From the sequence record PV730299.1: DNA of 64,000 bases; one strand, 5' to 3'. The translations under genes were made by a program, and so were the position numbers. The notes beneath the pieces were generated by a model. It saw nothing but the letters and a program-made list of their open reading frames with translations. It was not told where the DNA came from and made no database searches. This DNA comes from a phage. Each line of letters begins with the position of its first letter. Position 1 is the first letter of the stretch. This document shows, in pieces, positions 340 to 49,979 of this stretch.

Positions 340-720
340 ATGAAAGAGTATAAAGATGTCGATCTGAAGTTCGGCATGCATCCGGTGACCAAAGACGTCA
401 CTATGAAATCAGGTGTGTATGCTGTCTTACAATCCGTGCGGAATATCGTCATGTCTTCAGTCGGGGACTGGCCCACTTATCCTGGGATCGGCGCGGGGCT
501 TTATGGGCTGTTGGGTGAAAACACGACACCGACTATCCAGGTAGATGTGAAGAACAAAGTAGAGGACGCTATCGCCCTGTATGAACCCAGAGCAGAGGTA
601 GAAGAAGTCACGGTGAGTCTGTCAGAGGATTACCATTCTCTGGGCGTGACCATCACATTCTATGTGGTCAACAATCCAGATCCAATAACAGACACCGTGT
701 GGTTGAAAAGGACGAATTAG
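340..720 (+). CDS. 25: baseplate wedge protein, T4 gp25-like (GPW/gp25 family)
   Basis: 126 aa; C-terminal block ALYEPRAEVEEVTV...VVNNPDPI parallels T4 gp25 RNYEPRIDKLAVNV...IDNPDDI; ATG preceded by GAGAGGA. Confidence 0.75.
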   Translation: MKEYKDVDLKFGMHPVTKDVTMKSGVYAVLQSVRNIVMSSVGDWPTYPGIGAGLYGLLGENTTPTIQVDVKNKVEDAIALYEPRAEVEEVTVSLSEDYHSLGVTITFYVVNNPDPITDTVWLKRTN

Positions 721-1067
721 AATTTCGTCCTGAATGCCGGAGCCACGACTAACATGAAGTGGCTCAATAACCTGAACATCTCTTTACCGTTGAATTGGTA
801 GAGGATAATCATCGGCCTGACGTCAACCACTGATCCCTCCAGCTTCTTGTTCAACACAAATCTGGAACCCACACTGACCTGTCCGCGCTCTTCGTCTCCT
901 GGTTTGTCGTAGACCACGCAACTGGTGGCATAACCGATTTGAGATCCATCCTCAGACCGCAAGGGCAGCATATGCCCTTCAGACATCAGATGATGCAGGT
1001 TCTGGTATAAACCTTTGTCTGGTATGGGGACTGCCAGCTGCATTCTCAACTCTTTGTAATCTTGCAT
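717..1067 (-). CDS. hypothetical protein
   Basis: 116-aa ORF, GGAG about 8 nt upstream of ATG, start packed against the stop of the upstream gene. Confidence 0.45.
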   Translation of the reverse strand: MQDYKELRMQLAVPIPDKGLYQNLHHLMSEGHMLPLRSEDGSQIGYATSCVVYDKPGDEERGQVSVGSRFVLNKKLEGSVVDVRPMIILYQFNGKEMFRLLSHFMLVVAPAFRTKF

Positions 1068-1072
1068 GAGGA

Positions 1073-1534
1073 CTACTCCGCCAGGGTGATCACAACCATA
1101 TTTAAGACTGTGTCGATAGCTCGGCCTGTTTCCTCTTCATGGAGGGTTTCGGCTCGGAGGTGCACGTCGGTGATGAAATTGTCGATGTGCATTGAAGTCA
1201 GATACGGGCGGTGTTGACTGACCGGGCGGTTGACCAGAACATAATTGCGCAATGTGTTGAAGTCCTGATGAGAGCACCCCGTTGTATCGATACGAAGGAA
1301 GCGTTCGTTGTGACTTGTCTTCAACTCAGTCACCTTGCCAAGGTAGACCAGAGGTCCATTGCGACCGATACGGAACATGACATCAACAACAGACTTGAAG
1401 ATTTCGCGTTCAATCAGTGCGGTGGGTGACCAGCAGATCTCTTCTTTGTCGTCGGCGTACAGGGTGTCGATCACCAGAGGGAGTTGAATGTAACCGAAGT
1501 TGTGCAGTGGGTTGGTGAGTACTTTGTTTGTCAT
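1073..1534 (-). CDS. hypothetical protein
   Basis: 153-aa ORF; AGGAACTATATC-ATG initiation region shared with other early genes; sigma70-like promoter just upstream. Confidence 0.55.
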   Translation of the reverse strand: MTNKVLTNPLHNFGYIQLPLVIDTLYADDKEEICWSPTALIEREIFKSVVDVMFRIGRNGPLVYLGKVTELKTSHNERFLRIDTTGCSHQDFNTLRNYVLVNRPVSQHRPYLTSMHIDNFITDVHLRAETLHEEETGRAIDTVLNMVVITLAE

Positions 1535-1584
1535 GATATAGTTCCTGCTTTTAATTTGTGGCGAATGCCAATGAATTACTGGGA

Positions 1585-1613
1585 AGTATAAGCGCAGGGA
1601 TTATAGAAGTAAA
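1585..1613 (-). promoter_or_regulatory. sigma70-like early promoter (TTTACT-N17-TATACT) abutting a hairpin at about 1614-1630
   Basis: Minus-strand reading TTTACTTCTATAATCCCTGCGCTTATACT directly after the hairpin GCCCCTCAATGAGGGGC; same hexamers and spacing as at 14320-14348; the copies at 51183-51210 (N16), 7899-7928 and 29197-29225 (TATTAT -10) vary slightly. Confidence 0.5.
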
Positions 1614-1639
1614 GCCCCTCAATGAGGGGCTTCGGCTTG

Positions 1640-1864
1640 TCAGCGTTTAAGGCTGGCGGCGAGTCCATTAACGTCGGTCACGGTCTGGTCAGCGAGGACG
1701 ATTACAGGCATCGACACGCGCGGCTTACCCGTCAACTGCTGAAGTTCTTCCAGCCGGTAATCTTTGTCCAGCTTGAGGATCTTGTGTTCCAGCCCTTTCA
1801 TTTTGCACAGATTTTCGGCTGTTACACACTGAGCGCAACCTTGTTTGGAATAGATCGTAATCAT
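1640..1864 (-). CDS. nrdH: NrdH-like glutaredoxin (redoxin partner of ribonucleotide reductase)
   Basis: 74 aa with N-terminal CAQC redox motif (MITIYSKQGCAQC); directly downstream of nrdB. Confidence 0.75.
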   Translation of the reverse strand: MITIYSKQGCAQCVTAENLCKMKGLEHKILKLDKDYRLEELQQLTGKPRVSMPVIVLADQTVTDVNGLAASLKR

Positions 1865-1873
1865 TTCTCACCT

Positions 1874-2977
1874 TTAAGCGAATTTGAGGCCATCGGATAC
1901 CGAACCAGTCAGTACACCCATCAGATAATCAGGAGCTTCCGCTTCCTGCAACGCGTACTGCATTGCCTTATTATCTAGCCAGTCATTAATCCATGGGACT
2001 GGGTTCTCCTTGCGAGGTTCACCGGGATATGGATGCCCGATAGCGCCCATCCGGTGGGTTGCCAGCCAGTCTACCATCTGATGAAGGATCTTGGCGTTCA
2101 GCCCCAGGATGGAACCGTCTTTGAATAGGTAGTTCGCCCACTCCTTCTCCTGATGGACCACGTCCAAGAACATCTGGGTCATCTCACCACGCAGTTCCTC
2201 ACGGATGATTGCAAAGTCGGGGTCCATACCAGGCAGGCGGTTTAGCAGCGTCTGGGTCAGGATCAGGTGATCCTGCTCATCACGGGCGATCTGTCGAATG
2301 ATTTTGGCATTGCCTTCCATCTTCTTCTGAAACTGTGTGAATGCCCAAGAGCATGCAAAGGACACGTAGAAGCGGATGCCTTCCAGTGTGTTGGCAGCAA
2401 ACAGAGCACGCCAGAATGCGCGTTTGGCATTCATCAGATCTTCTCGGGTGAAGATGCGTCCGGCCATACGCATGCCACTGTACTGTACCATGTCATCGTA
2501 GTACACACTGATCTGGTGAGCACAGTCCACGATCTCCACAACATCCAGTACGTGGTCAAACACGATACCTGGATCGTTCACAGTATTGCGCAAAATGTGG
2601 GTGTACGATAAAGAGTGAATGGCTTCCTGGCGCGTCCATTCAAGGACAGCAAACTGCATTTCAGGGGTAGACGCCCATGGACCAAACGCCTCGAACGGAG
2701 CCGCACCCTGGATAGAGTCCAGCATGGTCTGGCGCTTCAGGTTGCTGAAGTAGACATGTTTCTCTGCTTCGTTCAGAGTAGCGAAGTCTGCCTTGTCCTT
2801 GGTGATGTCCACCTCTTCAGGACGCCAGAACTGACTGAGACCTTTCTCATACCACTTCTGTACGAATGGCCAGGCCACGACATCGTAACGCTGGATGCTC
2901 ACTGGGTCACCGAAGAACGGTAGACCAGTGTTGTCCGAGCTTGGGTCGAATACGGAGAATTGTTTCTGTTCGCTCAT
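1874..2977 (-). CDS. nrdB: ribonucleotide reductase class Ia beta subunit
   Basis: 367 aa; ferritin-like di-iron/tyrosyl radical protein with overall similarity to E. coli/T4 NrdB; uninterrupted (no intron). Confidence 0.95.
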   Translation of the reverse strand: MSEQKQFSVFDPSSDNTGLPFFGDPVSIQRYDVVAWPFVQKWYEKGLSQFWRPEEVDITKDKADFATLNEAEKHVYFSNLKRQTMLDSIQGAAPFEAFGPWASTPEMQFAVLEWTRQEAIHSLSYTHILRNTVNDPGIVFDHVLDVVEIVDCAHQISVYYDDMVQYSGMRMAGRIFTREDLMNAKRAFWRALFAANTLEGIRFYVSFACSWAFTQFQKKMEGNAKIIRQIARDEQDHLILTQTLLNRLPGMDPDFAIIREELRGEMTQMFLDVVHQEKEWANYLFKDGSILGLNAKILHQMVDWLATHRMGAIGHPYPGEPRKENPVPWINDWLDNKAMQYALQEAEAPDYLMGVLTGSVSDGLKFA

Positions 2978-3047
2978 GTTTCTTTCCTGATTAATAAGGG
3001 GTGATCTCTCACCCCTGATGATATAACGGTAGTAGGTTTAGACCAAT

Positions 3048-5330
3048 TTATACAACACAGCTATCGCACTGAGTTTCCTCGGCCTGCTTCAGCTCTTCGT
3101 CTTCCTTGGCGTCCTTGTTTGTGTTGTAATACAGAGTCTTGCCACCCCACATATAGAACGACAGGATATCCTGCATCATCTTGGCGCGAGGGATCTTGCT
3201 GTCAGGGTACTTCTCTGGGTCATACCACGTGTTGGTACTGATGGACTGGTCAACCCAGCGCTGGATGACAGCAGCGGTCTTCAGGTACTCAATACAGTCC
3301 AGATCCCACTTGAGGTCATACATCGGTCCAAGGGTCTCAACGTCCGGGACGACCTGCTTATAAGTGCCGTCCTTGCTACCCTTGATGCTCACCAAGCCCT
3401 TCGGTGGCTCAATGCCGTTCGTTGCGTTGAGGACCTGTGAGGAGCTTTCGGTAGGGGCTACTGCCAGCAGGGTGGCGTTGCGGATACCATAGGTCTTCAG
3501 ATTATCCTTCAACCCATCCCAATCCAGCCCGTATGCCATCCCTTCTGGCTTCTTGCCATTTGGTAGGATATCAAGTGGAAGCGGCTGAAGGTCGGCGGTG
3601 ACCTGCCCATTATTGTGGATGGTTCCGCGTTTACACGCCCCGAACTTCATAGCCAGACGGTTGGACGCCTTGACCAGATAGAAGTGCAGGTGTGCCATCC
3701 ACGCATCCAGCATTTCAAGACCAGCTGGTGAGCCATAGCCCGTGAAGTTCTTGGCCAGGAAGTGAGCCACGTTCACGATACCAACACCCAGAGGACGATA
3801 GTCTTCAACAGCCTTGCGAGCCTGAATCGCTGGATAGTCCTGATATTCCAACAGCATGTCCAGCGCAGACACCAACACGAACGCCACGTCTTCCATTTCG
3901 GTCGGGTCTTCGAATGCTGTCAGGTTGAAGGAAGCCAGGGTGCACAGAGCCACGCGCCCGTTTTCATCGTTGTACTGCTCAAACTCACGGGTCGGCAGGG
4001 CGATTTCTAAACAAAGATTTGAAGAATAAATCGTGTCTAGGTTGAATGGACTGTATTCATTCATGTGATCGACAAACGCGATGTAGATGCGGCCTGTGTC
4101 TGAACGCTGGTCTAACAGCATCTGGAACACCTCTTCTGCCTGCAACTTTTTAGCACGAACCAAACCAGCATCAGCGGCCTTGATCATGTTCTCATACAGA
4201 GTACGGAACTTGTCAACGTCAGCGAAGTATGCTTCATACATTTCGCGGTTGTCTTTCGGGTCGAACAGATACAGAGGCTGCTTGGCAACCAGGCGCTCAA
4301 ACATCACGCGGTTGATCTGAATGCCATAGTCGATACGGCGTTCGCGGTTTTCTTCAGTACCACGGTTGTTCTTCAGAACAACGACGTCATCGAACTGGTA
4401 ATGCCACAGAGGGATGTACGCTGTTGCTGCACCACCACGAATGCCGCCCTGAGAGCACGATTTGAGTGCCCCAGTGAGATACTTGATGAACGGGATCAGG
4501 CCTGTGTGAACCATCTCTCCGCCGCGAATAGGACTACCAATCCCACGGATTGCCCCGACGTCGAAGCCGATACCCGCACGTTTGGACACATAGTCAACGA
4601 TGGTCTTGGCTGTTGCGTTGATAGAGTTCAGGGTGTCATCAGTCTTGATTAACACGCAGGAACTAAACTGACGAGTAGGAGTACGAACACCTGCCATAAT
4701 CGGGGTGGGAAGACTGAACTTGCCTGTGCTGGCATATTCATAGAACTTTTTCACCATCTCCAGGCGGCTGTCTTTGTCCCAGTTAGAGAACAACGCCATG
4801 GCGATGCCCATGTACATGACCTGAGGGGTTTCGTAGAAGATCTTGCTGTCTTTCTTGGAACGGTCGCGCAACAGGTACTTCTCAGTCAGCTGACCCATGG
4901 CCGCCCACGTGAAGTTCTTATCGCGTTTGTGATTGATGACATCGTTCAGCTCGTTGAACTCTTCGGTCGTGTAGAGATCAAGGAACTCACGATCATACAC
5001 GCGCTGTTTGATGTTCTTGACGAAGATGTCCAGCAGGTGAGGCGGCTTGTACTGACCGTAGACAGCCTTGCGCAGATCATACGACTTCAGACGAGCAGCC
5101 ACATACTGGTAATTGGGTTTGTCTACAGAGATCAGTGAAGCCGCAGCCTGGATGAGGATATCCTGAATGCGATCTGTTCTCATGTTGTCGGTGAACTGAA
5201 TCTTCGATGCAGCGATCACCTCTGACATTGACACACCAGACAGGCCATCACAGGCGCGGTCTACGACTGCGTGTAGTTTCTCAATATCAAATGGGACAGA
5301 AGATCCGTCACGTTTTATAACGTTAATCAT
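3048..5330 (-). CDS. nrdA: ribonucleotide reductase class Ia alpha subunit
   Basis: 760 aa; N-terminal ATP-cone (MINVIKRDGSSVPFDIEKL), length matches NrdA (about 760 aa); SD GAGGAACACC-ATG; no intein. Confidence 0.95.
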   Translation of the reverse strand: MINVIKRDGSSVPFDIEKLHAVVDRACDGLSGVSMSEVIAASKIQFTDNMRTDRIQDILIQAAASLISVDKPNYQYVAARLKSYDLRKAVYGQYKPPHLLDIFVKNIKQRVYDREFLDLYTTEEFNELNDVINHKRDKNFTWAAMGQLTEKYLLRDRSKKDSKIFYETPQVMYMGIAMALFSNWDKDSRLEMVKKFYEYASTGKFSLPTPIMAGVRTPTRQFSSCVLIKTDDTLNSINATAKTIVDYVSKRAGIGFDVGAIRGIGSPIRGGEMVHTGLIPFIKYLTGALKSCSQGGIRGGAATAYIPLWHYQFDDVVVLKNNRGTEENRERRIDYGIQINRVMFERLVAKQPLYLFDPKDNREMYEAYFADVDKFRTLYENMIKAADAGLVRAKKLQAEEVFQMLLDQRSDTGRIYIAFVDHMNEYSPFNLDTIYSSNLCLEIALPTREFEQYNDENGRVALCTLASFNLTAFEDPTEMEDVAFVLVSALDMLLEYQDYPAIQARKAVEDYRPLGVGIVNVAHFLAKNFTGYGSPAGLEMLDAWMAHLHFYLVKASNRLAMKFGACKRGTIHNNGQVTADLQPLPLDILPNGKKPEGMAYGLDWDGLKDNLKTYGIRNATLLAVAPTESSSQVLNATNGIEPPKGLVSIKGSKDGTYKQVVPDVETLGPMYDLKWDLDCIEYLKTAAVIQRWVDQSISTNTWYDPEKYPDSKIPRAKMMQDILSFYMWGGKTLYYNTNKDAKEDEELKQAEETQCDSCVV

Positions 5331-10601: not shown

Positions 10602-13562
10602 TCAGATCTTAATCTGCATGTTGCCACCCAGGGACTGCTCGTACTCGCTGTATGCGCCTTCCCCGTAGTCTCGTGCCCACTGGTCAGACTGCTGGGCACT
10701 ATCCAGAGTCATCAGGTTTGGTTCAGTCGGGTTGTAACCCTTGGACTTCGCATCCCGGTACAGAGTCTGCAGGTACTGGTTGGCGCGGTCAATCTGAGCT
10801 TTGAACTCGCGATATGCCCCTTCAGTTGTGTTGCGGCGGAAGGTGATATCCCAGTCCACGTTCAGAGTCTGACCATCACGGCTTGCATAGATCTGCCAAT
10901 CCAGGTCGCGACCTTTTGGTGCGTTGTCGCGGATGGAGTCGGCGTATGCCGCAAGGTCGTCCTTCGGATTGTGCGACGTGCTTTTCAGAAGTAGTGCATG
11001 ACCCATACCACCGTTTGACTGAAGAGACCATTTTCCTGTTTCTCTTCCCAGGCGTTCTATGTTGTTGAGTTGGTTTATCGACAATTCAGAAGAGTCAAAT
11101 AATACCACATCACGTTTTTTGGGGGTTCTCACATAAGGGGTGAGATCAATGTCGATCATCCGGTTTATAAATTCTACCACTTCAGCTTGTTTCTTTGGCA
11201 ATGTGGTATTGATATCCGGCGTGTTTGCTACTTTCTCCAGGCGTTTGTTTTCTGCGCTTATCATGGATAGCATAATTTGTGTAACTTTGCCGTCAGACAA
11301 GTTGTAATCATTCCAAATCACTTCACCTTTATCCGTGATGGTTATATCGTTCAAGAACACCTGGTTTGGGTTGTATGACTGACTTTTCAACTGTTGGAGG
11401 TTTCTGGAAAGATATTCCATTTTTGATGAAATCTCATCAATCACACTCTGGACCATATCTTTGTTTAAAGGAAGTTCATATGTCTTTGGATTGTTCAGGG
11501 TACGCCCTTTCTGAGAGACAATTGGGGTGAATGCAACTTTACCTTTGTCGTAGTAATAGGTCACGTTGGTTATCATAGAAGCACCGGCGTATTTTCCCGT
11601 TTCGGGGAAATTGACATCCCACCGAATGGACATACCGTTGACAGTCTCACCAAACACCATGGCGTTGCGTGGCATCTTCAGGGTTCCAGAGTTGACCAGA
11701 TCATCGCCTTGGGCATTCAGGTCGATAGAACCATAGATGGCCCCGGTAATACGATCTTTCAGCATCAGGGTCTTGTCGCCCTTCTCTGGGATGATTTCCA
11801 GCGGGTGCTTGCCACGCGGAGGCTCTTTGATGAGTTCCAGCAGAGCAGTGTTCCCAGGCTTCACACGATTCAGGACAGCGTCTGACACTGTCAGAGTCCA
11901 GTTTGCGGTTTCTACATAACCCCAGCCCCGAGAACGGCGAATGGCTTTGATAGGGTATGGAGCGCTTGTTGGCACTGCGCTAATTTCCCATTTCCCAGTG
12001 TACTGGGTCTTGGCAACCTCAAAGATGGACGCAATTACCGCATTGGCGACGTCACGGGCGCTGCCTTTGGCCACGTTCTCCTCTTCAGCAATTTCGCTGA
12101 AAACTGAGTATTGAATGAAACCAGCGAGGACGTTTGTGAAGTTGACAACGATAACCAACCCGCCTGCCGTCGTGTAACGACCAGCGCCCACACGACGGAT
12201 GTTCTCACCAGGAAGAATAGAAGTGTCCAGCCCAACGTTGGTATCAATGATACCCAGAACACGAGCGATGAAACCGCTGTCACGTAATTGATCAACACTG
12301 GTTGCACCCTCGGTCGAATCCGATGCGGATTTAGACACTTTGTTCAACTTGATAGAGACAAGGGTTTCCCCGTTGACACCGATGATATCCCATTCAGTAC
12401 CCTGCTCGTTCGAGATGCGGGCAATCTTGCGCTTTGAATTGATGGCACCTTCGTAACGCCCGTTTTTGACCACAACAGAGGCAGTGGCAGCATCAGTCGC
12501 ACTTGCTGCATTTGAAAAGTCTGGGTCGGAAATACTGATGTCGACGTCACCGTTTTGAGAACGCATGCGAACACCGTTTTTGAATCGTTCCACGTTTACT
12601 TCTCGAGCACCAAGTCGTTTGGCATCAATAACAGCAGTTCCAGAACCGATAATGTTGGCTGGGTTATTTCTGTCTGAACTGTTTTGAGAACCTTTCCAAA
12701 ATTTTGTGGACGCCGTGGTGAAATCATTCAGGATACTGATAGGGACTTGCGGTAATTTCAACTGACGAGCAATGAAATCAGCACTTTGCCCACGCACAGG
12801 TTTCTCATTCATGTATGCGCCAACATACACACCCGGCTCATTGTAGTGGGGAGCGATATTTGCCGTGTTCATGCGGCCTCTCTCCTTACCAGCCCATAAC
12901 AACATGGGCTGATCCCCGTTTGAAGTCAATTTCCATCCGTTGGAATTATCAGCAGAAGATGACACACCCACATCCGGAGTATTGTTCTGAACCGGAACGT
13001 CACCGACCTTGTCTGGATCATCCCAGGTGATACCCTGCATCTTCGGACCGTCGAATACCTGAGCCGGATCTTTACCCTTGCGGACCAGCCACACATAACC
13101 ACGGTCAGGGACAGGCGCGTAGGTCAGGTCCATGACATTCAGTTTCTGTTTCAGGCCGGACTGGCGGATGATCTTAGGAATCAGGGTCATACCGCGATCC
13201 AGCGCTTTCTTAGAGAAGTTGACAGCAAAGCCATCGATGGTCTTGCCCAGAGGAGTCGCCATGAATTGTTTGGTCGCTTCGATCATGGAAGCGATAACGC
13301 GCATTGGGTTCTTGAAGCGAGCGATGGCGTCAGGATAGACGGAGCCGCGCTTCTGGCCGATGAAAACCTGACGAACGCTCTTGCCCAGCCCCTGAGGGGT
13401 ATAGAACTGAATACGGTATTCCTTTTCATCTTCGTCGATGAAGGTGAAGAACACATCGCCTGCGTTCTTCTTACCCATGGTCAGCTCATACGGAGCGGAG
13501 TTGAACGCTTCGTCCAACTGATCTCTTTCCTGCATGAACTGGAGGAAACTTAGCTTTGACAT
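10602..13562 (-). CDS. large hypothetical protein (986 aa), possibly virion-associated
   Basis: Uninterrupted 986-aa ORF with strong SD AGGAGATATAAA-ATG; CTAATTAGAA motif upstream as for gp19 and portal; no family recognised by eye. Confidence 0.7.
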   Translation of the reverse strand: MSKLSFLQFMQERDQLDEAFNSAPYELTMGKKNAGDVFFTFIDEDEKEYRIQFYTPQGLGKSVRQVFIGQKRGSVYPDAIARFKNPMRVIASMIEATKQFMATPLGKTIDGFAVNFSKKALDRGMTLIPKIIRQSGLKQKLNVMDLTYAPVPDRGYVWLVRKGKDPAQVFDGPKMQGITWDDPDKVGDVPVQNNTPDVGVSSSADNSNGWKLTSNGDQPMLLWAGKERGRMNTANIAPHYNEPGVYVGAYMNEKPVRGQSADFIARQLKLPQVPISILNDFTTASTKFWKGSQNSSDRNNPANIIGSGTAVIDAKRLGAREVNVERFKNGVRMRSQNGDVDISISDPDFSNAASATDAATASVVVKNGRYEGAINSKRKIARISNEQGTEWDIIGVNGETLVSIKLNKVSKSASDSTEGATSVDQLRDSGFIARVLGIIDTNVGLDTSILPGENIRRVGAGRYTTAGGLVIVVNFTNVLAGFIQYSVFSEIAEEENVAKGSARDVANAVIASIFEVAKTQYTGKWEISAVPTSAPYPIKAIRRSRGWGYVETANWTLTVSDAVLNRVKPGNTALLELIKEPPRGKHPLEIIPEKGDKTLMLKDRITGAIYGSIDLNAQGDDLVNSGTLKMPRNAMVFGETVNGMSIRWDVNFPETGKYAGASMITNVTYYYDKGKVAFTPIVSQKGRTLNNPKTYELPLNKDMVQSVIDEISSKMEYLSRNLQQLKSQSYNPNQVFLNDITITDKGEVIWNDYNLSDGKVTQIMLSMISAENKRLEKVANTPDINTTLPKKQAEVVEFINRMIDIDLTPYVRTPKKRDVVLFDSSELSINQLNNIERLGRETGKWSLQSNGGMGHALLLKSTSHNPKDDLAAYADSIRDNAPKGRDLDWQIYASRDGQTLNVDWDITFRRNTTEGAYREFKAQIDRANQYLQTLYRDAKSKGYNPTEPNLMTLDSAQQSDQWARDYGEGAYSEYEQSLGGNMQIKI

Positions 13563-16013: not shown

Positions 16014-16323
16014 ACGTTTGTCTCAGATGTTCAGTAAAGGATTTACCCAGCTTGCGGAATAGTTTAATACGACCAATGACTTTGACGTAAACATCTCCGT
16101 GGCAGGGGCGCGGCTTACACCAGCACCCCAATACCTTCCCGTCAAGATCAAGGAGTTCATCCTCAGTGATATCCCCTTCAATCAGGCGCACATACAGGTC
16201 GTCCTCAAACAGTTCGATACAGACGCCTCGTCCATGGTCTTTGACCTCAAACGGGTTCCCCCATTTACCAGGCCGACCAATGTAGACGTCATATGGCTCC
16301 TTCTTGAAGTGGACGACTTTCAT
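15994..16323 (-). CDS. DUF4326-like protein
   Basis: 109 aa with GRPGKWGNPF and LGCWCKPRPCHGDV motifs characteristic of DUF4326. Confidence 0.6.
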   Translation of the reverse strand: MKVVHFKKEPYDVYIGRPGKWGNPFEVKDHGRGVCIELFEDDLYVRLIEGDITEDELLDLDGKVLGCWCKPRPCHGDVYVKVIGRIKLFRKLGKSFTEHLRQTYVRKQR

Positions 16324-16484
16324 TTCAGGATTTGACCTGCAAGTAGATAACAGAACCAGACAGAGAACCCGAGATACCCCAGTGATTTCAGGTAGTTTTT
16401 CCTTTCGACTTCACGAGAAAACGCAACGATGTCAATGATGCATGCAAAGATCAGTATTGCGAGTTTAATTTGTTCGTAGTTCAT
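16320..16484 (-). CDS. small membrane protein (not in the ORF track, under 60 aa)
   Basis: 54 codons, MNYEQIKLAILIFACIIDIVAF...LGYLGFSVWFCYLLAG, two hydrophobic segments; SD AAGGATTGATC-ATG; stop overlaps the next start (ATGA). Confidence 0.4.
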   Translation of the reverse strand: MNYEQIKLAILIFACIIDIVAFSREVERKNYLKSLGYLGFSVWFCYLLAGQILK

Positions 16485-26453: not shown

Positions 26454-26780
26454 TTAACCCGAAACTTTATTTTGAAATCCGACAAAGTCCTGGGCAATCC
26501 CCCGACAATACATCAGGTCTTTCTTCGTTTGTGGACTGTTATCAGCCGCAGTCAGCATCATGGGAAGATCCAGCGCATTCTCTATCTGATCAACACTGAA
26601 CAGATCAAGGCGCTTCAGCTCCCCCTCGAAGTCGGACAGGAGGATAGATGTGTCTTTGTCATCTGGGTGGAACTGCTGATACGTCTCCATCCATGCCACA
26701 CATGTGTTCAGTTTGGACGGTGGCGCGGCGTTTACACACCCGGCTATCAGTACCAACAAGAGCAGGATTTTACATTTCAT
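26454..26780 (-). CDS. putative lipoprotein (lipobox LIAGC)
   Basis: 108 aa; N-terminus MKCKILLLLVLIAGC is a signal peptide with lipobox; strong SD GAAGGAGAA; start overlaps the stop of the upstream gene. Confidence 0.6.
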   Translation of the reverse strand: MKCKILLLLVLIAGCVNAAPPSKLNTCVAWMETYQQFHPDDKDTSILLSDFEGELKRLDLFSVDQIENALDLPMMLTAADNSPQTKKDLMYCRGIAQDFVGFQNKVSG

Positions 26781-27466
26781 CACTCGTTCTCCTTCATCAT
26801 ATTGTCGCAGTCAACACGAGTCTGCTGGAGTTCGCGCGACATGCGGGGATCATCAAGGTTCACGCTCAGATTCGTAGCCAGGTCTTTCAGACCGTTCTGA
26901 ACCCTGTCTTCAAAGTAATAATCGTTCTCAACCAGCCAGGCTCTGAGACCAAGAGCGCGGGTGCGCCATTCCTTCTTCAGGACGCGATCAGAGGTCTGTG
27001 TAGCGCTGTATTCGAATACTTTGATGCACTGGTTGCCATCGTTGATAAGGTTCAGGTGGCGGCGACCAACCTGCACACCCTTCTGTAATGCCGGAGAAGG
27101 GAGCGAACGGCACTGTCTTACGGTCATTCGGCCTTGGGTGCCCATACGCCCAGTCATGATCAAATCGCCAGCCTCCATGCCTCCACGGTTAAATTCGTCG
27201 TCATTGAGGTAGCCTTTGAGGTTATAGGCTCCCTGTTTGTAACGGTTGAACTCAATTCCGGCATTGACGACAGCAGTGGAGACGTTGCCTGTGTTCCAGA
27301 GTTCAGCGAAGTTCTCTATGGAACCAGACTTGTCGATGGCAACCGCCTGGGAGAACCCAGCGCAATAGGAAAGGTCGGACCACAGTTTATCACCTGTGGA
27401 GTTCAGCTTGGCAGCGGCGGGTAATGCCAGACCAACCAGCACAACCCCGAGGATTAAACGTTTCAT
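26780..27466 (-). CDS. secreted or membrane-anchored periplasmic protein
   Basis: 228 aa from MKRLILGVVLVGLALPAAA (hydrophobic N-terminus) with SD AAGGAGAA; immediately upstream of the lipoprotein gene. Confidence 0.55.
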   Translation of the reverse strand: MKRLILGVVLVGLALPAAAKLNSTGDKLWSDLSYCAGFSQAVAIDKSGSIENFAELWNTGNVSTAVVNAGIEFNRYKQGAYNLKGYLNDDEFNRGGMEAGDLIMTGRMGTQGRMTVRQCRSLPSPALQKGVQVGRRHLNLINDGNQCIKVFEYSATQTSDRVLKKEWRTRALGLRAWLVENDYYFEDRVQNGLKDLATNLSVNLDDPRMSRELQQTRVDCDNMMKENE

Positions 27467-27545
27467 GGCGATTCTCCTTATTTCATTGGATGAAATGATA
27501 GGCGGCTCACCATGATGAGTAAAGGGATTCAATAAACTATCGTAT

Positions 27546-27995
27546 TCAGAAACGGGTATCACTGACCGTTCTGTATCGCACACCCTGAAACTGTTTAGCG
27601 AGTTTAACAAATTCCATCGCTGGCAAATCAACTTTGTAGACCTTCATGCGCTGTTTGCCGTCCATGTTCAACGCAGCGACAAATCGGTGAGAACCGTCAA
27701 CAACGTAATTGTCAGAAGACACCCAAACTCGACCCATAGGTTTCTTATTTCTGATGTTCTTCATGATCTTCCAGACCTTCATCTTGTTGATTTCGTTCTG
27801 GGTAAGACGAAGCATTTTGATGGGCACTTGCACAGCATCTATGGACACGCCGTTGTCTTCAAGATATTTGTGAAAATCTTCTTGTTTGTCGGCATCGATT
27901 TGCGGCATAGAAGAACGAGAAAGCCCGAGGTTCCCAACAGGAATCCTCAGGCCGTTAATGATGTTCAACCAGTCAATAAAAGATGTAAGGAACAT
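27546..27995 (-). CDS. ParB-like nuclease domain protein
   Basis: 149 aa; motif YVVDGSHRFVAA matches the ParB/Srx DGxHR box. Confidence 0.55.
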   Translation of the reverse strand: MFLTSFIDWLNIINGLRIPVGNLGLSRSSMPQIDADKQEDFHKYLEDNGVSIDAVQVPIKMLRLTQNEINKMKVWKIMKNIRNKKPMGRVWVSSDNYVVDGSHRFVAALNMDGKQRMKVYKVDLPAMEFVKLAKQFQGVRYRTVSDTRF

Positions 27996-28027: not shown

Positions 28028-28186
28028 TTAGCGCATCCATCGATCCTTTCTCTCTTTCTCCTTGCGTTCGCGACGTTTCTGGTCGGATCGGAATAACCAA
28101 TAGAAGAAGTTCCCACCCAAGATGAAAACCACCGCGATTATTACTAGGACACCCTTCACAATTTCCCAAACCAATTCTTTATCCAA
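28028..28186 (-). CDS. small membrane protein (TTG start inferred)
   Basis: Hydrophobic segment VLVIIAVVFILGGNFFYWLF followed by a basic tail; SD GAGGTATAAT then TTG; the track ORF 28028-28219 starts at an upstream TTG overlapping the previous gene. Confidence 0.3.
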   Translation of the reverse strand: MDKELVWEIVKGVLVIIAVVFILGGNFFYWLFRSDQKRRERKEKERKDRWMR

Positions 28187-28187
28187 A

Positions 28188-28475
28188 TTATACCTCGTCT
28201 TCTTCAGGTCCACCGTCAATCAGGATACGAGCGGCGTCGAAAGTTTCCCCGCCCGTGTTCAGCAGCTTGGTCAGATCGTCAAGATATCGGACCGTGCCAA
28301 GATCAGACGACCGCGATATAAACTCCAGCATGCCATACAACGCTGTTTGGAATCGGCTGTTGTCGATATCGTTCTTTATTACCATCAGGCGCAAGATGTT
28401 CTCTGACTGAGTATGGCCAACACACGCCTTGTCTCTGATCATCTCCTTGATAGAACTTCTCTCTGATGGTGTCAT
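28188..28475 (-). CDS. hypothetical protein
   Basis: 95-aa ORF; ATGA start/stop overlap with the upstream gene. Confidence 0.4.
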   Translation of the reverse strand: MTPSERSSIKEMIRDKACVGHTQSENILRLMVIKNDIDNSRFQTALYGMLEFISRSSDLGTVRYLDDLTKLLNTGGETFDAARILIDGGPEEDEV

Positions 28476-28846
28476 AACGTACCCCCGACAGAGATCAAGA
28501 ACTCTTCTTGCATGGTCTTGACCGGGTGGTGGTTGCGGGTTTCGAACATGAAGCCCCAGCCACCGTCGGCGACGTTGCCAAAGGTCTTGACGCCAAAGGA
28601 CTTCGTCCCGTTGGAGCAGGAATAGATGTCCAGGACGTATGGGCTACCCTGATTGTCGATCCCACGATTCACGTCGTCTGATACGCAGCGCTCAATCATC
28701 TTCCCGTTCTTATACAGAACGAGGTCTTGGCCATACGCCTTGAAAGCATAAACACCGTTGGTAGACACTCCGGTGATGACAGGAGGGGCGGAAACAGCAG
28801 CAAAGGAAGCGCCCAGCAGGGCAACAGCGAGGATTAACTTTTTCAT
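28472..28846 (-). CDS. secreted protein of unknown function
   Basis: 124 aa from MKKLILAVALLGASFAAVSA (signal peptide); conserved CTATATC-ATG initiation context. Confidence 0.55.
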   Translation of the reverse strand: MKKLILAVALLGASFAAVSAPPVITGVSTNGVYAFKAYGQDLVLYKNGKMIERCVSDDVNRGIDNQGSPYVLDIYSCSNGTKSFGVKTFGNVADGGWGFMFETRNHHPVKTMQEEFLISVGGTL

Positions 28847-48362: not shown

Positions 48363-48633
48363 AATAGCACCTTTACTGTGGAGATATGTTGTGACCCTGA
48401 TGCGCGGGATCAGTAGATTGTTGTTGGCATGCTCGATGCTCTTGTTTACGAGCTGTCGCATCTTTGTCACGCCAATAATTTCTGTTTCCGAACTCTGGAC
48501 CCCAGAAGTGCGCACCGTACCTGTGATGTTGTCGGCCAGTGTTCCCACTTGTAACAAGGGTATGCTGGACATCATCGTGCAAGAGTTCCAGCCCTTCCAG
48601 AAGCTCGTACCTTTAGGTTGCTTTGATGAGAAC

Positions 48634-49041
48634 ATGAGCACCCTCAAGCCATACTGGAAGACCACAATTCCTCTCCTGCGGCGTGGCGATGAAGGGAAGA
48701 TTCCATACCTTTCAGCCAGTATTTATTACTCTCAGAACAACAGCATCATTATCACTTTTAATCCATCATTCTATGCCAAGCTGAAGCAACGCATGGTTGG
48801 ACGACTGGGTACAACATCGGATATAATCGTGACGTTCAAGATCATGAATGACACAGATAAACCAGTACGAATCGCAACTCAGGGTGTGTTCGTTAACAAC
48901 GACGCGGTTGGAAATGGGATGAGCATCTTTGAAGTTAACCCAGGGGGAACAATCTTGATCAGACTGAGTAATGCGGGTGTGAACTCCCTGCTGTTGGATG
49001 GCATCGAACCATTGGGAGTTCTTCCGGCGCGGGAGCACTGA
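48634..49041 (+). CDS. hypothetical protein (plus strand, uncertain)
   Basis: 135-aa segment from MSTLKPYWK is the only ORF covering 48666-49041; weak SD; overlaps an antisense open frame upstream. Confidence 0.3.
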   Translation: MSTLKPYWKTTIPLLRRGDEGKIPYLSASIYYSQNNSIIITFNPSFYAKLKQRMVGRLGTTSDIIVTFKIMNDTDKPVRIATQGVFVNNDAVGNGMSIFEVNPGGTILIRLSNAGVNSLLLDGIEPLGVLPAREH

Positions 49042-49808: not shown

Positions 49809-49979
49809 TCATGGTAGTTTGTAAACGAAGTTGGACCAGAACTTACGAACAAACTTCTTGACATAAACCATTCGGTTGGCGTATTCCCCATCCTTCAGGT
49901 CATTGTAGGTCTCGATCCCTACCGCGCCCAAGAAGTACGCCGTGAAGATATAGCAGAACAGATTGATGACGACAAACAT
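49809..49979 (-). CDS. small single-pass membrane protein (not in the ORF track)
   Basis: About 56 codons, MFVVINLFCYIFTAYFLGAVGIETYNDLKDGEY...; SD GGAGATACATC-ATG; ATAAATAA motif upstream. Confidence 0.4.
   Translation of the reverse strand: MFVVINLFCYIFTAYFLGAVGIETYNDLKDGEYANRMVYVKKFVRKFWSNFVYKLP

What the first reader, a model, noticed from the sequence alone, without database searches (positions are those of the whole stretch)
26454..27466. Overlapping periplasmic-protein / lipoprotein gene pair (spanin-like or exclusion-like)
A 228-aa protein with a hydrophobic N-terminus is followed, with start/stop overlap, by a 108-aa lipoprotein with lipobox LIAGC. This is the gene arrangement of i-spanin/o-spanin pairs, but the first protein is large for an i-spanin and not obviously coiled-coil, so a superinfection-exclusion or envelope-modifying role is equally possible.
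Basis: inference. Interest (0 to 1): 0.45.

Follow-up and report, generated by a model that had tools for sequence, protein, structure and literature searches.

The report
Secreted phage protein pair mislabelled spanin
Two overlapping genes of a Vi01-like (Ackermannviridae) E. coli phage encode proteins exported to the space between the bacterial membranes; databases call them the 'spanin' that bursts the outer membrane, but comparison with relatives argues against that, and their real job is unknown.

Summary
On the minus strand, a 228-aa gene (26780-27466) and a 108-aa gene (26454-26780) overlap by one base, and the second has the lipobox LIAGC. The window is an Ackermannviridae phage, about 98% identical to vB_EcoM-RPN242. 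The same pair in phage Marshall is listed in SpaninDB as i-/o-spanin, and the small protein belongs to PHROG 3843, "Rz-like spanin". No experiment supports this.

The defining spanin features fail:
- **Lipobox:** 35 of 43 cluster representatives of the small protein lack it. So do CBA120, Det7, moki, phiD3, 0507-KN2-1, phiMAM1 and Bue1, which have plain signal peptides. phiD3's mature domain is 94.5% identical to this one.
- **Membrane anchor:** the large protein has a 12-residue hydrophobic core and an invariant P-A-x-A cleavage motif, so it has a cleavable signal peptide rather than an anchor.
- **Fold:** both model as compact all-alpha, cysteine-bearing domains, not coiled coils.
- **Context:** the endolysin lies about 20 kb away.
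- **Curation:** the spanin curators list ten sister phages as spanin-less.

Best reading: a conserved, translationally coupled pair of periplasmic binding proteins under strong purifying selection. The small one has recently and perhaps incidentally become lipid-anchored. I guess a Spackle-like exclusion or envelope-protection role, which is untested.

The parts
27495..27523 (-). Sigma-70-like promoter candidate, TTTACT-N17-TATCAT, upstream of gene A
   Evidence: Consensus scan gives 9 of 12 matches. Both hexamers are kept in Det7, moki, phiD3 and 0507-KN2-1, while the spacer diverges in the last. This is weak evidence. No T4-type late box TATAAATA lies nearby.
27474..27479 (-). Shine-Dalgarno AAGGAG of gene A, 7 nt before the ATG
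   Evidence: Sequence read directly. It is conserved in the alignment of upstream regions.
26780..27466 (-). Gene A: 228-aa exported all-alpha protein of PHROG 4260, annotated 'i-spanin' in Marshall
   Evidence: ORF. PHROG 4260, E 3e-154, function unknown. It has 30 close homologues, and only 11 hits among 1.8 billion representatives. AF2 gives pLDDT 81 with ten helices and no strand. dN/dS is 0.03-0.10.
27410..27466 (-). Signal peptide of A (residues 1-19, MKRLILGVVLVGLALPAAA), predicted to be cleaved after A19
   Evidence: The hydrophobic core is 12 residues. P16, A17 and A19 are invariant in 21 sequences. Distant homologues have ASA|A, ANA|G, AWS|E and VHA|R sites. No SignalP run was possible.
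26789..26794 (-). Shine-Dalgarno AAGGAG of gene B, inside codons K225-E226 of A; supports translational coupling
   Evidence: Sequence read directly. A's C-terminus MMKENE is invariant.
26454..26780 (-). Gene B: 108-aa exported small acidic helical-bundle protein of PHROG 3843 'Rz-like spanin', annotated 'o-spanin' in Marshall
   Evidence: ORF. PHROG 3843, E 1e-54. 43 cluster representatives, all on contigs of Ackermannviridae size. AF2 gives pLDDT 87, with the core at about 96, and five helices. The mature protein has pI 4.4.
26727..26780 (-). Signal peptide of B (residues 1-18), ending in the family-conserved SPase-I type site VNA|AP
   Evidence: Alignment of 31-37 homologues shows ..A-x-A|(A/S/V)P immediately before the conserved LNxC motif.
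26736..26750 (-). Lipobox L-I-A-G-C (residues 11-15; Cys15, with Val at +2), a lineage-specific feature
   Evidence: Verified by translation. It is present in 7 of 43 cluster representatives, and in Marshall, Maynard, SW16-7 and MK-13. It is absent in CBA120, Det7, moki, phiD3, EspM4VN, 0507-KN2-1, phiMAM1, Bue1 and two metagenomic relatives.

Best explanation
Genes A and B are a conserved, translationally coupled pair of Ackermannviridae core genes. Both products are exported through Sec into the periplasm of the infected cell.

**A.** It loses a short signal peptide and becomes a soluble protein of about 209 aa. It has two all-alpha domains, each carrying a pair of conserved cysteines. The N-terminal domain is the ancestral part.

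**B.** It is a small, acidic five-helix bundle with two conserved cysteines. In most relatives it is soluble. In this lineage a Cys has appeared in the signal peptide and created a lipobox, so here it is probably tethered to the inner face of the outer membrane.

**Mechanism.** Neither protein shows conserved catalytic-looking residues or any known enzyme fold. I infer that they act together as a stoichiometric binding complex, not an enzyme, on a conserved envelope or phage target. They appear to be made from their own sigma-70-type promoter rather than as part of a lysis cassette.

**Most likely role (inference by analogy).** Envelope protection or superinfection exclusion of the T4 Spackle kind. 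One candidate target is the peptidoglycan-cleaving tail tip of incoming phages, which in this family carries a CHAP domain.

**What it is not.** It is not a Rz/Rz1-type spanin.

**Shown:** real genes, export signals, family distribution of the lipobox, globular helical models, purifying selection.
**Inferred:** signal-peptide cleavage, disulfide pairing, A-B complex formation, timing, function.

My probability that this is an exported periplasmic pair and not a canonical spanin is about 0.8. My probability that its role is exclusion or envelope protection is about 0.3. The single confidence value given is a blend of the two.
For: **Export signals**
- A has a 12-residue hydrophobic core with invariant P16-A17-x-A19.
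- Distant A homologues at 32-35% identity all have classic A-x-A type sites.
- B homologues have ..AxA|AP sites.

**Lipobox not conserved**
- Only 7 of 43 representatives have it.
- It is absent from six named genera or lineages and from two metagenomic relatives.
- phiD3's B is 94.5% identical over residues 18-108 yet has no lipobox.

**The pair is a unit**
- A 1-4 nt overlap is kept at 35% identity.
- The minimal module is the A N-domain (126-165 aa forms) plus B, as in phiMAM1, 3M and Bue1.
- B's SD lies inside A's invariant C-terminus.

**Globular folds**
- The AF2 models are compact and all-alpha.
- SpaninDB's own tables give zero coiled coil, and the o-spanin candidate is 56% helical.
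- Conserved cysteines are C35, C119, C147 and C220 in A, and C27 and C92 in B.

**Selection.** dN/dS is 0.03-0.10.

**Context**
- The endolysin is about 20 kb away.
- No holin or other spanin is annotated or found.
- A sigma-70-like promoter is conserved upstream.
- Neighbours in relatives include gp17-like and Lar-like accessory genes.

**Literature**
- Ten Vi01-like phages, including Maynard with an identical B, are listed as spanin-less.
- The Mutine, May and Menlow announcements report no reliable spanin.

**Spackle parallel**
- T4 Sp is a 97-aa precursor and an acidic helical bundle (mature pI 4.6 against 4.4 for B).
- It has one disulfide, C29-C81, and a lipobox-like LASC inside its signal peptide.

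**Possible target.** The gp5-like hub of this phage family carries a CHAP domain.
Against: - No experiment exists for any member of either family.
- Signal-peptide cleavage, disulfides and the A-B interaction are inferred. SignalP, LipoP and multimer modelling were not available.
- The AF2 alignments are shallow (Neff about 2).
- The promoter match is weak, 9 of 12, which is no better than the shuffled expectation for the region.
- Timing would not discriminate cleanly in any case. By my recollection, T4's spanin genes are not strictly late.
- These phages must disrupt the outer membrane somehow. This pair remains the only lipoprotein-linked candidate that curators ever proposed.
- In this particular lineage the lipobox is canonical.
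Confidence: 0.4

Rival explanations
1. The pair is a genuine but unorthodox two-component spanin, as annotated for Marshall. A stays anchored in the inner membrane by an uncleaved N-terminal segment and B is an outer-membrane lipoprotein. Their periplasmic domains bind, and after endolysin action the complex disrupts or fuses the outer membrane.
For: - The order is adjacent, with the hydrophobic-N-terminus protein first and the lipobox protein second, overlapping by 1 nt. This matches 'separated' spanins.
- The lipobox LIAGC with Val at +2 is canonical.
- The pair is listed in SpaninDB, and B falls in PHROG 3843 'Rz-like spanin'.
- Both are core genes of the family.
- No other spanin candidate exists in the window or in the rest of the Marshall genome.
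- Both proteins have conserved cysteines.
Against: - The lipobox is absent in 35 of 43 representatives and in most genera, while the mature domain is conserved. phiD3's is 94.5% identical.
- A's N-terminus has a 12-residue core and an invariant AxA motif, as do all distant homologues.
- There is no coiled coil. Both periplasmic parts model as globular, and the pair is the most extreme outlier in SpaninDB at 300 periplasmic residues.
- The same authors list Maynard, Vi01, CBA120, PhaxI, SFP10, AG3 and others as spanin-less. Later announcements say no spanin could be identified.
- There is no homology to any tested spanin in Pfam, NCBIfam or PDB.
Confidence: 0.1
2. The pair is a periplasmic regulator of lysis timing, an analogue of the T4 antiholin RI. 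It would bind the periplasmic part of a still unidentified holin, or sense superinfection, and so delay lysis.
For: - Both are small exported helical proteins, and A has a Gly/Ala-rich N-terminal segment. By my recollection of T4 RI, this resembles its SAR-type signal.
- The phage family is T4-like and carries rIIA and rIIB.
- Its holin is unknown.
Against: - There is no homology to RI. The PDB profile searches, which cover RI structures, found nothing.
- No T-type holin is known in these phages.
- The AxA motif is invariant, whereas a SAR domain need not be cleaved.
- rII genes are not themselves part of the RI-T mechanism (established knowledge).
Confidence: 0.1
3. The pair targets a host periplasmic or outer-membrane component rather than other phages. 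It might inhibit a host periplasmic enzyme or an envelope-stress or defence factor, or alter a surface structure, to secure the infection.
For: - A is highly conserved (77-95%) across phages of Salmonella, Escherichia, Klebsiella, Dickeya and Serratia. This fits a target conserved among Enterobacterales.
- It sits among accessory and anti-defence genes in relatives, namely gp17-like and Lar-like genes.
- Neighbouring genes encode another secreted protein and a small membrane protein.
Against: - No hit to any defence-related or anti-defence model (PADLOC).
- No bacterial homologues were found.
- Nothing identifies a host target.
- A conserved phage target, the tail hub, explains the conservation equally well.
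Confidence: 0.2

Closest known systems
Two-component spanins (lambda Rz/Rz1; 'separated' type T4 PseT.3/PseT.2)
   Same: Two adjacent, overlapping genes with the larger first. The first protein has an N-terminal hydrophobic segment. In this lineage the second has a canonical lipobox without Asp at +2. Both have periplasmic cysteines. The pair is listed in SpaninDB for phage Marshall.
   Different: - The first protein has a cleavable signal peptide instead of a transmembrane anchor.
- The lipobox is missing from most family members.
- Both periplasmic parts are globular helical domains, with no coiled coil and no proline-rich unstructured o-spanin.
- At 300 periplasmic residues it is the longest in SpaninDB.
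- There is no sequence homology to any tested spanin.
- It is not near the endolysin.

T4 Spackle (Sp, gp61.3), a periplasmic superinfection-exclusion protein that inhibits the gp5 tail lysozyme
   Same: Compared with B: a precursor of about 100 aa with a Sec signal, a compact acidic alpha-helical bundle, and one cysteine near the start and one near the end of the mature domain. In Sp these are disulfide-bonded C29-C81; in B they are C27 and C92. Both are encoded by a T4-like myovirus. Sp's signal peptide also contains a lipobox-like LASC before the AMA|G site.
   Different: - No detectable sequence or profile similarity.
- B is always coupled to a second exported protein, A, whereas Sp acts alone.
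- The tail hub of this phage family carries a CHAP domain, not a lysozyme.
- The function of B is untested.
T5 Llp / Cor-type lipoproteins (superinfection exclusion by blocking an outer-membrane receptor)
   Same: A small phage-encoded protein with an outer-membrane lipoprotein signal, in this lineage, in a lytic phage.
   Different: - No homology: PHROGs gives only family 3843.
- Lipidation is not conserved in the family.
- There is an obligatory partner protein.
- The receptors of these phages are surface polysaccharides bound by tailspikes (established knowledge), so a periplasm-facing receptor blocker is less obvious.
T4 RI antiholin
   Same: A small exported helical periplasmic protein of a T4-like phage. 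Its N-terminal segment is rich in Gly and Ala.
   Different: No homology. There is an invariant AxA cleavage motif. No T-type holin is known in the family.

Membership tests
Two-component spanin (Rz/Rz1 type, SpaninDB criteria) | o-spanin carries an outer-membrane lipoprotein signal (lipobox + Cys, no Asp at +2) in this sequence | tested here: met
   L-I-A-G-C at residues 11-15, with Val at +2. It is the only convincing lipobox ORF in the window. An SPase-I site follows 3 residues later, so actual lipidation is unproven.
Two-component spanin (Rz/Rz1 type, SpaninDB criteria) | The lipoprotein signal is a conserved, required property of the o-spanin family | tested here: not met
   35 of 43 cluster representatives lack any lipobox Cys, 7 have one and 1 is truncated. 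CBA120, Det7, moki, phiD3, EspM4VN, 0507-KN2-1, Bue1, phiMAM1-type and two metagenomic relatives have plain signal peptides.
Two-component spanin (Rz/Rz1 type, SpaninDB criteria) | i-spanin is a type II inner-membrane protein with an N-terminal transmembrane domain | tested here: not met
   The hydrophobic core is LILGVVLVGLAL, 12 residues, followed by invariant P-A-x-A|K. Distant homologues have ASA|A, ANA|G, AWS|E and VHA|R. This is judged by the -3/-1 rule and core length; SignalP and TMHMM were not available.
Two-component spanin (Rz/Rz1 type, SpaninDB criteria) | Adjacent, overlapped or embedded gene arrangement, i-spanin gene first | tested here: met
   1-nt overlap, TGATG. A 1-4 nt overlap is conserved in all relatives examined.
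Two-component spanin (Rz/Rz1 type, SpaninDB criteria) | Extended periplasmic domains able to bridge the membranes (helical or coiled-coil i-spanin; short, largely unstructured o-spanin) | tested here: not met
   AF2 models both as compact multi-helix domains. SpaninDB tables give 0 coiled-coil segments, and the o-spanin candidate is 56% helical.
Two-component spanin (Rz/Rz1 type, SpaninDB criteria) | Sequence homology to an experimentally tested spanin | tested here: not met
   No Pfam, NCBIfam or PDB match. The pair forms singleton families in SpaninDB. The PHROG 3843 label is the family's own inherited name.
Two-component spanin (Rz/Rz1 type, SpaninDB criteria) | Required for outer-membrane disruption at lysis | not testable with these tools
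   Needs a deletion phenotype or complementation of lambda Rz/Rz1. No published experiment was found.
Spackle-type periplasmic superinfection-exclusion protein (T4 Sp) | Small Sec-exported periplasmic protein, compact helical bundle with a disulfide | tested here: inconclusive
   B has a signal peptide, a five-helix AF2 model with core pLDDT about 96, invariant C27 and C92, and pI 4.4. The disulfide is not verifiable because no model coordinates were available.
Spackle-type periplasmic superinfection-exclusion protein (T4 Sp) | Homology to T4 Sp (PHROG 1586) | tested here: not met
Spackle-type periplasmic superinfection-exclusion protein (T4 Sp) | Binds and inhibits the tail-tip peptidoglycan hydrolase of incoming phage; excludes superinfection | not testable with these tools
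   The family's gp5-like hub has Gp5_OB + CHAP domains, so a target exists in principle. No binding or exclusion data exist.
Llp/Cor-type exclusion lipoproteins | Conserved lipoprotein that blocks an outer-membrane receptor; homology to Llp/Cor | tested here: not met
   No PHROG or Pfam link. Lipidation is not conserved in the family.

The most novel reading that the evidence does not exclude
Vi01-like phages have been repeatedly reported as 'spanin-less'. In the most novel reading, this core pair of exported globular proteins is their missing outer-membrane-disruption device. It would be a new, anchor-independent class of lysis protein in which soluble, or optionally lipid-tethered, periplasmic proteins replace the membrane-spanning Rz/Rz1 bridge. 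A less radical version is that the pair is a new two-component, Spackle-like exclusion system aimed at a CHAP-type tail tip; I give that about 0.3.
Probability: 0.08. Interest if true: 0.75.

Novelty: new variant of a known kind. Interest (0 to 1): 0.38.

Why it matters
**Annotation.** The label 'Rz-like spanin / i-spanin' is now propagated to hundreds of Ackermannviridae genomes, many of them phage-therapy candidates against Salmonella, E. coli O157, Klebsiella and Dickeya. It rests on one unverified 2013 call. If it is wrong, two things follow:
- How these phages breach the outer membrane is still unknown.
- A core, strongly conserved periplasmic two-protein module has no assigned function.

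**Biology.** If the pair is an exclusion or envelope-protection system, it would be a new analogue of T4 Spackle. It would also bear on phage-cocktail design, because co-infecting relatives could exclude one another.

**Method.** A lipobox next to a hydrophobic-N-terminus protein is not enough to call a spanin. Family-wide conservation of the anchors has to be checked.

Tried and rejected
**Family and structure searches**
- Pfam, NCBIfam and PADLOC scans of A, B and neighbours gave nothing for A or B.
- PDB profile searches at E<=10 gave nothing.
- Foldseek against BFVD found only Ackermannviridae homologues of A.
- The AlphaFold-DB library was unavailable.
- An exhaustive HMMER search with the A profile found only 11 hits in 1.8 billion representatives, all family members or fragments.

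**Specific homology ideas**
- A and B as paralogues: hhalign probability 12%, rejected.
- B as a Spackle homologue: hhalign probability 8%, rejected as homology and kept as analogy.
- T4 sp is also followed, with a 1-nt overlap, by a roughly 200-aa gene (61.2). That protein has no signal peptide and no resemblance to A, so the idea was rejected.

**Genome context**
- Late-promoter search (TATAAATA): none near the pair.
- Other spanin candidates: a lipobox and TMD scan of the window and of the rest of the Marshall genome found none. Marshall_19, a putative lipoprotein, sits next to a cytoplasmic protein and has no C-terminal TMD.

**Literature.** Searches for transcriptomic or functional data on the pair found nothing usable.

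**Not possible here.** No model coordinates were accessible, so the disulfide geometry and the A-B interface could not be checked.
Full report
On the minus strand, a 228-aa ORF (gene A, 26780-27466) is followed by a 108-aa ORF (gene B, 26454-26780). A's TGA and B's ATG share one base (TGATG). B's Shine-Dalgarno AAGGAG sits inside A's last codons, and A has its own AAGGAG 7 nt before its ATG. B carries L-I-A-G-C at residues 11-15 with Val at +2, and it is the only convincing lipobox ORF in the 64-kb window. The genes are real. They recur with the same overlap in about 280 phage records, and pairwise dN/dS is 0.03-0.10 for both.

**2. Where the window comes from and what the pair is called.** The region is about 98% identical to Escherichia phage vB_EcoM-RPN242 (Ackermannviridae, Aglimvirinae) and 93% identical to Salmonella phages Marshall and Maynard. 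In Marshall the two genes were annotated i-spanin and o-spanin. In Maynard, from the same laboratory and year, they are 'hypothetical protein' and 'conserved hypothetical lipoprotein'. The B proteins of the two phages are identical.

PHROGs puts B in family 3843, 'Rz-like spanin', and A in family 4260, function unknown. RefSeq has spread these names widely.

The spanin survey of Kongari et al. 2018 (PMC6139136) lists Marshall's pair as a 'separated' two-component spanin. It forms singleton families and has the longest combined periplasmic length in the whole database, 300 residues. It has no coiled-coil segment, and the o-spanin candidate is 56% helical. Table 10 of the same paper lists Maynard, Vi01, SFP10, SJ2, SJ3, CBA120, PhaxI, ECML-4, AG3 and RC-2014 as spanin-less. 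Later announcements from the same centre for the Vi01-like phages Mutine, May and Menlow say no holin or spanin could be reliably identified. I found no experiment on the pair.

**3. Testing the spanin reading.**

*Outer-membrane anchor.*
- Among 43 cluster representatives of the B family, all from contigs of Ackermannviridae size, 7 have a lipobox cysteine, 1 is truncated and 35 have an ordinary signal peptide. That peptide ends ..A-x-A|(A/S/V)P just before the conserved LNxC motif.
- I read the gene directly in named phages. CBA120, Det7 and moki (Kuttervirus), phiD3 (Limestonevirus), EspM4VN (Agtrevirus), 0507-KN2-1 (Taipeivirus), Bue1 (Nezavisimistyvirus) and two metagenomic relatives have no lipobox. 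The phiMAM1 (Miltonvirus) B homologue also has a plain signal peptide.
- Marshall, Maynard, SW16-7, MK-13 and the window do have one.
- phiD3's B is 94.5% identical to the window's over residues 18-108 and still lacks the anchor. The conserved function therefore cannot depend on lipid anchoring.
- The window's own sequence keeps the family's SPase-I type site (VNA|A) three residues after the cysteine.

*Inner-membrane anchor.*
- A's hydrophobic core is 12 residues. It is followed by P16-A17-x-A19, which is invariant in 21 sequences while the core varies.
- Homologues at 32-35% identity have ASA|A, ANA|G, AWS|E and VHA|R.
- This is the signature of a cleaved Sec signal peptide, not of the roughly 20-residue uncleaved anchor of Rz-type i-spanins (established knowledge). 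I could not run SignalP.

*Shape.*
- AlphaFold2 models B as a compact five-helix bundle (pLDDT 87, core about 96).
- It models A as ten packed helices, with a break at residues 121-139 (pLDDT 81).
- Neither looks like a periplasm-spanning rod.

*Context.*
- The endolysin (PG_binding_1 + N-acetylmuramidase, no export signal) lies about 20 kb away in Marshall.
- The pair sits between a ParB-like gene and HU/helicase genes.

Scattered lysis genes are normal in T4-like phages, so the context argument is weak on its own.

**4. What the proteins are.**
- Both families are confined to Ackermannviridae of Enterobacterales.
- An exhaustive profile search for A found 11 hits among 1.8 billion representatives. 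Foldseek against viral models found only family members.
- Short forms of A (126-165 aa: phiMAM1, 3M, Bue1, phiEa2809) correspond to its N-terminal domain and are still followed by B with a 4-nt overlap. The ancestral module is therefore the A N-domain plus B.
- Cysteines are conserved. C35 and C220 are invariant, and C119 and C147 nearly so, across A including distant members. C27 and C92 are invariant in B.
- The short A forms keep two cysteines, one near each end of the domain. I infer one disulfide per domain linking its first and last helices, as expected for periplasmic proteins. This could not be checked without coordinates.
- The residues invariant across distant A homologues are mostly Gly, Ala and Cys. 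No enzyme family or fold matches. I therefore infer binding proteins rather than enzymes.
- Both genes are listed among the 114 core genes of Vi01-like phages. Neither was seen in the virion proteome of Sajous1.

**5. Expression signals.** The 79-nt gap upstream of A contains TTTACT-N17-TATCAT (27523-27495). The match is no better than chance in a simple scan. However, both hexamers persist in Det7, moki, phiD3 and 0507-KN2-1 while the spacer of the last has diverged. There is no T4-type late box nearby. This weakly suggests transcription by unmodified host polymerase, meaning before the late phase.

**6. How it most likely works.** Export of both proteins is well supported. A then loses its signal peptide, and B is either released or, in this lineage, lipid-modified and held at the outer membrane by a tether of about nine residues. 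Both processing steps are inferred. I infer that the two form a complex, from the coupling, the co-inheritance and the minimal module. I also infer that the complex binds a target conserved across the family.

The closest design known to me is T4 Spackle:
- It is a 97-aa precursor that matures to 75 aa.
- It is an acidic helical bundle with one disulfide, C29-C81.
- It acts in the periplasm to inhibit the lysozyme of incoming tail tips (PMC7677548).
- Its signal peptide even contains a lipobox-like LASC before its AMA|G site.

B matches this design in size, charge (pI 4.4 against 4.6), helical bundle and cysteine placement. It is not homologous.

The tail hub of this phage family carries a CHAP domain where T4 has a lysozyme. 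A different inhibitor family would therefore be expected.

I put about 0.3 on an exclusion or envelope-protection role. The alternatives are about 0.2 on a host-directed periplasmic role, 0.1 on lysis timing and 0.1 on a true spanin.

**7. Novelty and value.** The genes themselves are catalogued, so this is not a discovery of new sequence. What the analysis adds is that the widely copied spanin label fails its own defining tests at the family level. The pair is an uncharacterised, family-specific periplasmic module. That leaves open how Vi01-like phages breach the outer membrane, and it gives a concrete, easily tested candidate for a new exclusion system.

**8. Limits.**
- There is no signal-peptide predictor, no multimer model, no model coordinates and no expression data.
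- The AF2 alignments are shallow.
- The function is an argument from analogy.

Noticed in passing
window 28472-28846 (-) and 28028-28219 (-): Just upstream of the pair lie a 124-aa protein with a classic signal peptide (MKKLILAVALLGASFAAVSA|PP; PHROG 5474, function unknown) and a 63-aa single-TMD protein with a very basic C-terminus. Together with A and B they form a small cluster of envelope-targeted proteins. The 63-aa protein has holin-like features, but nothing was tested.
   Followed up: partly
window 27546-27995 (-): A 149-aa ParB-N-like protein sits directly upstream of gene A, and this position is conserved in all relatives. Its homologue was detected in CsCl-purified Sajous1 virions (gp192, 11 spectra; PMC10892097) and is annotated as a structural protein in Limestone-like phages.
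   Followed up: no
L016 (T4 NC_000866) 2759-3052 (-): T4 spackle's signal peptide contains a lipobox-like LASC (Cys15) upstream of its AMA22|G cleavage site. Gene B here has the same layout (IAGC15, VNA18|A). This is a caution that a lipobox motif inside a signal peptide need not mean a lipoprotein.
   Followed up: partly
L015 (Marshall NC_022772) 610-2223 (-), outside the window: [quoted passage not shown] The tail-tip cell-wall enzyme of this family is therefore probably a cysteine peptidase or amidase.
   Followed up: partly
Literature: PMC6139136 Tables 3, 4 and 10: The spanin survey lists Marshall's pair as a spanin. It lists Maynard, whose B is identical, and nine other Vi01-like phages carrying the same pair as spanin-less.
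   Followed up: yes
window 26783-26800 (-): A's C-terminus MMKENE is invariant across genera. Its codons K225-E226 form the Shine-Dalgarno sequence of gene B, so part of this conservation may be at the RNA level.
   Followed up: partly
L014 (Marshall) 11435-11779 (-): A second putative lipoprotein, Marshall_19, is 114 aa with the motif ..AFSTTAC. It overlaps a 260-aa cytoplasmic-looking gene. It has no C-terminal TMD and no membrane-anchored partner, so it is not a spanin candidate.
   Followed up: partly
window 48400-49041 (+); 16320-16484 (-); 49809-49979 (-): One ORF has a lipobox-like FTSC and is probably an antisense artefact. Two small ORFs of 54 and 56 aa have strong hydrophobic segments and may be membrane proteins.
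   Followed up: no
L013 4371-5167; L012 3493-4291 (Miltonvirus relatives): In phiMAM1 and 3M, the region just downstream of the pair holds a P22 gp17-like gene (PF17420) and a Lar-like restriction-alleviation gene. This stretch therefore collects accessory and anti-defence functions.
   Followed up: no
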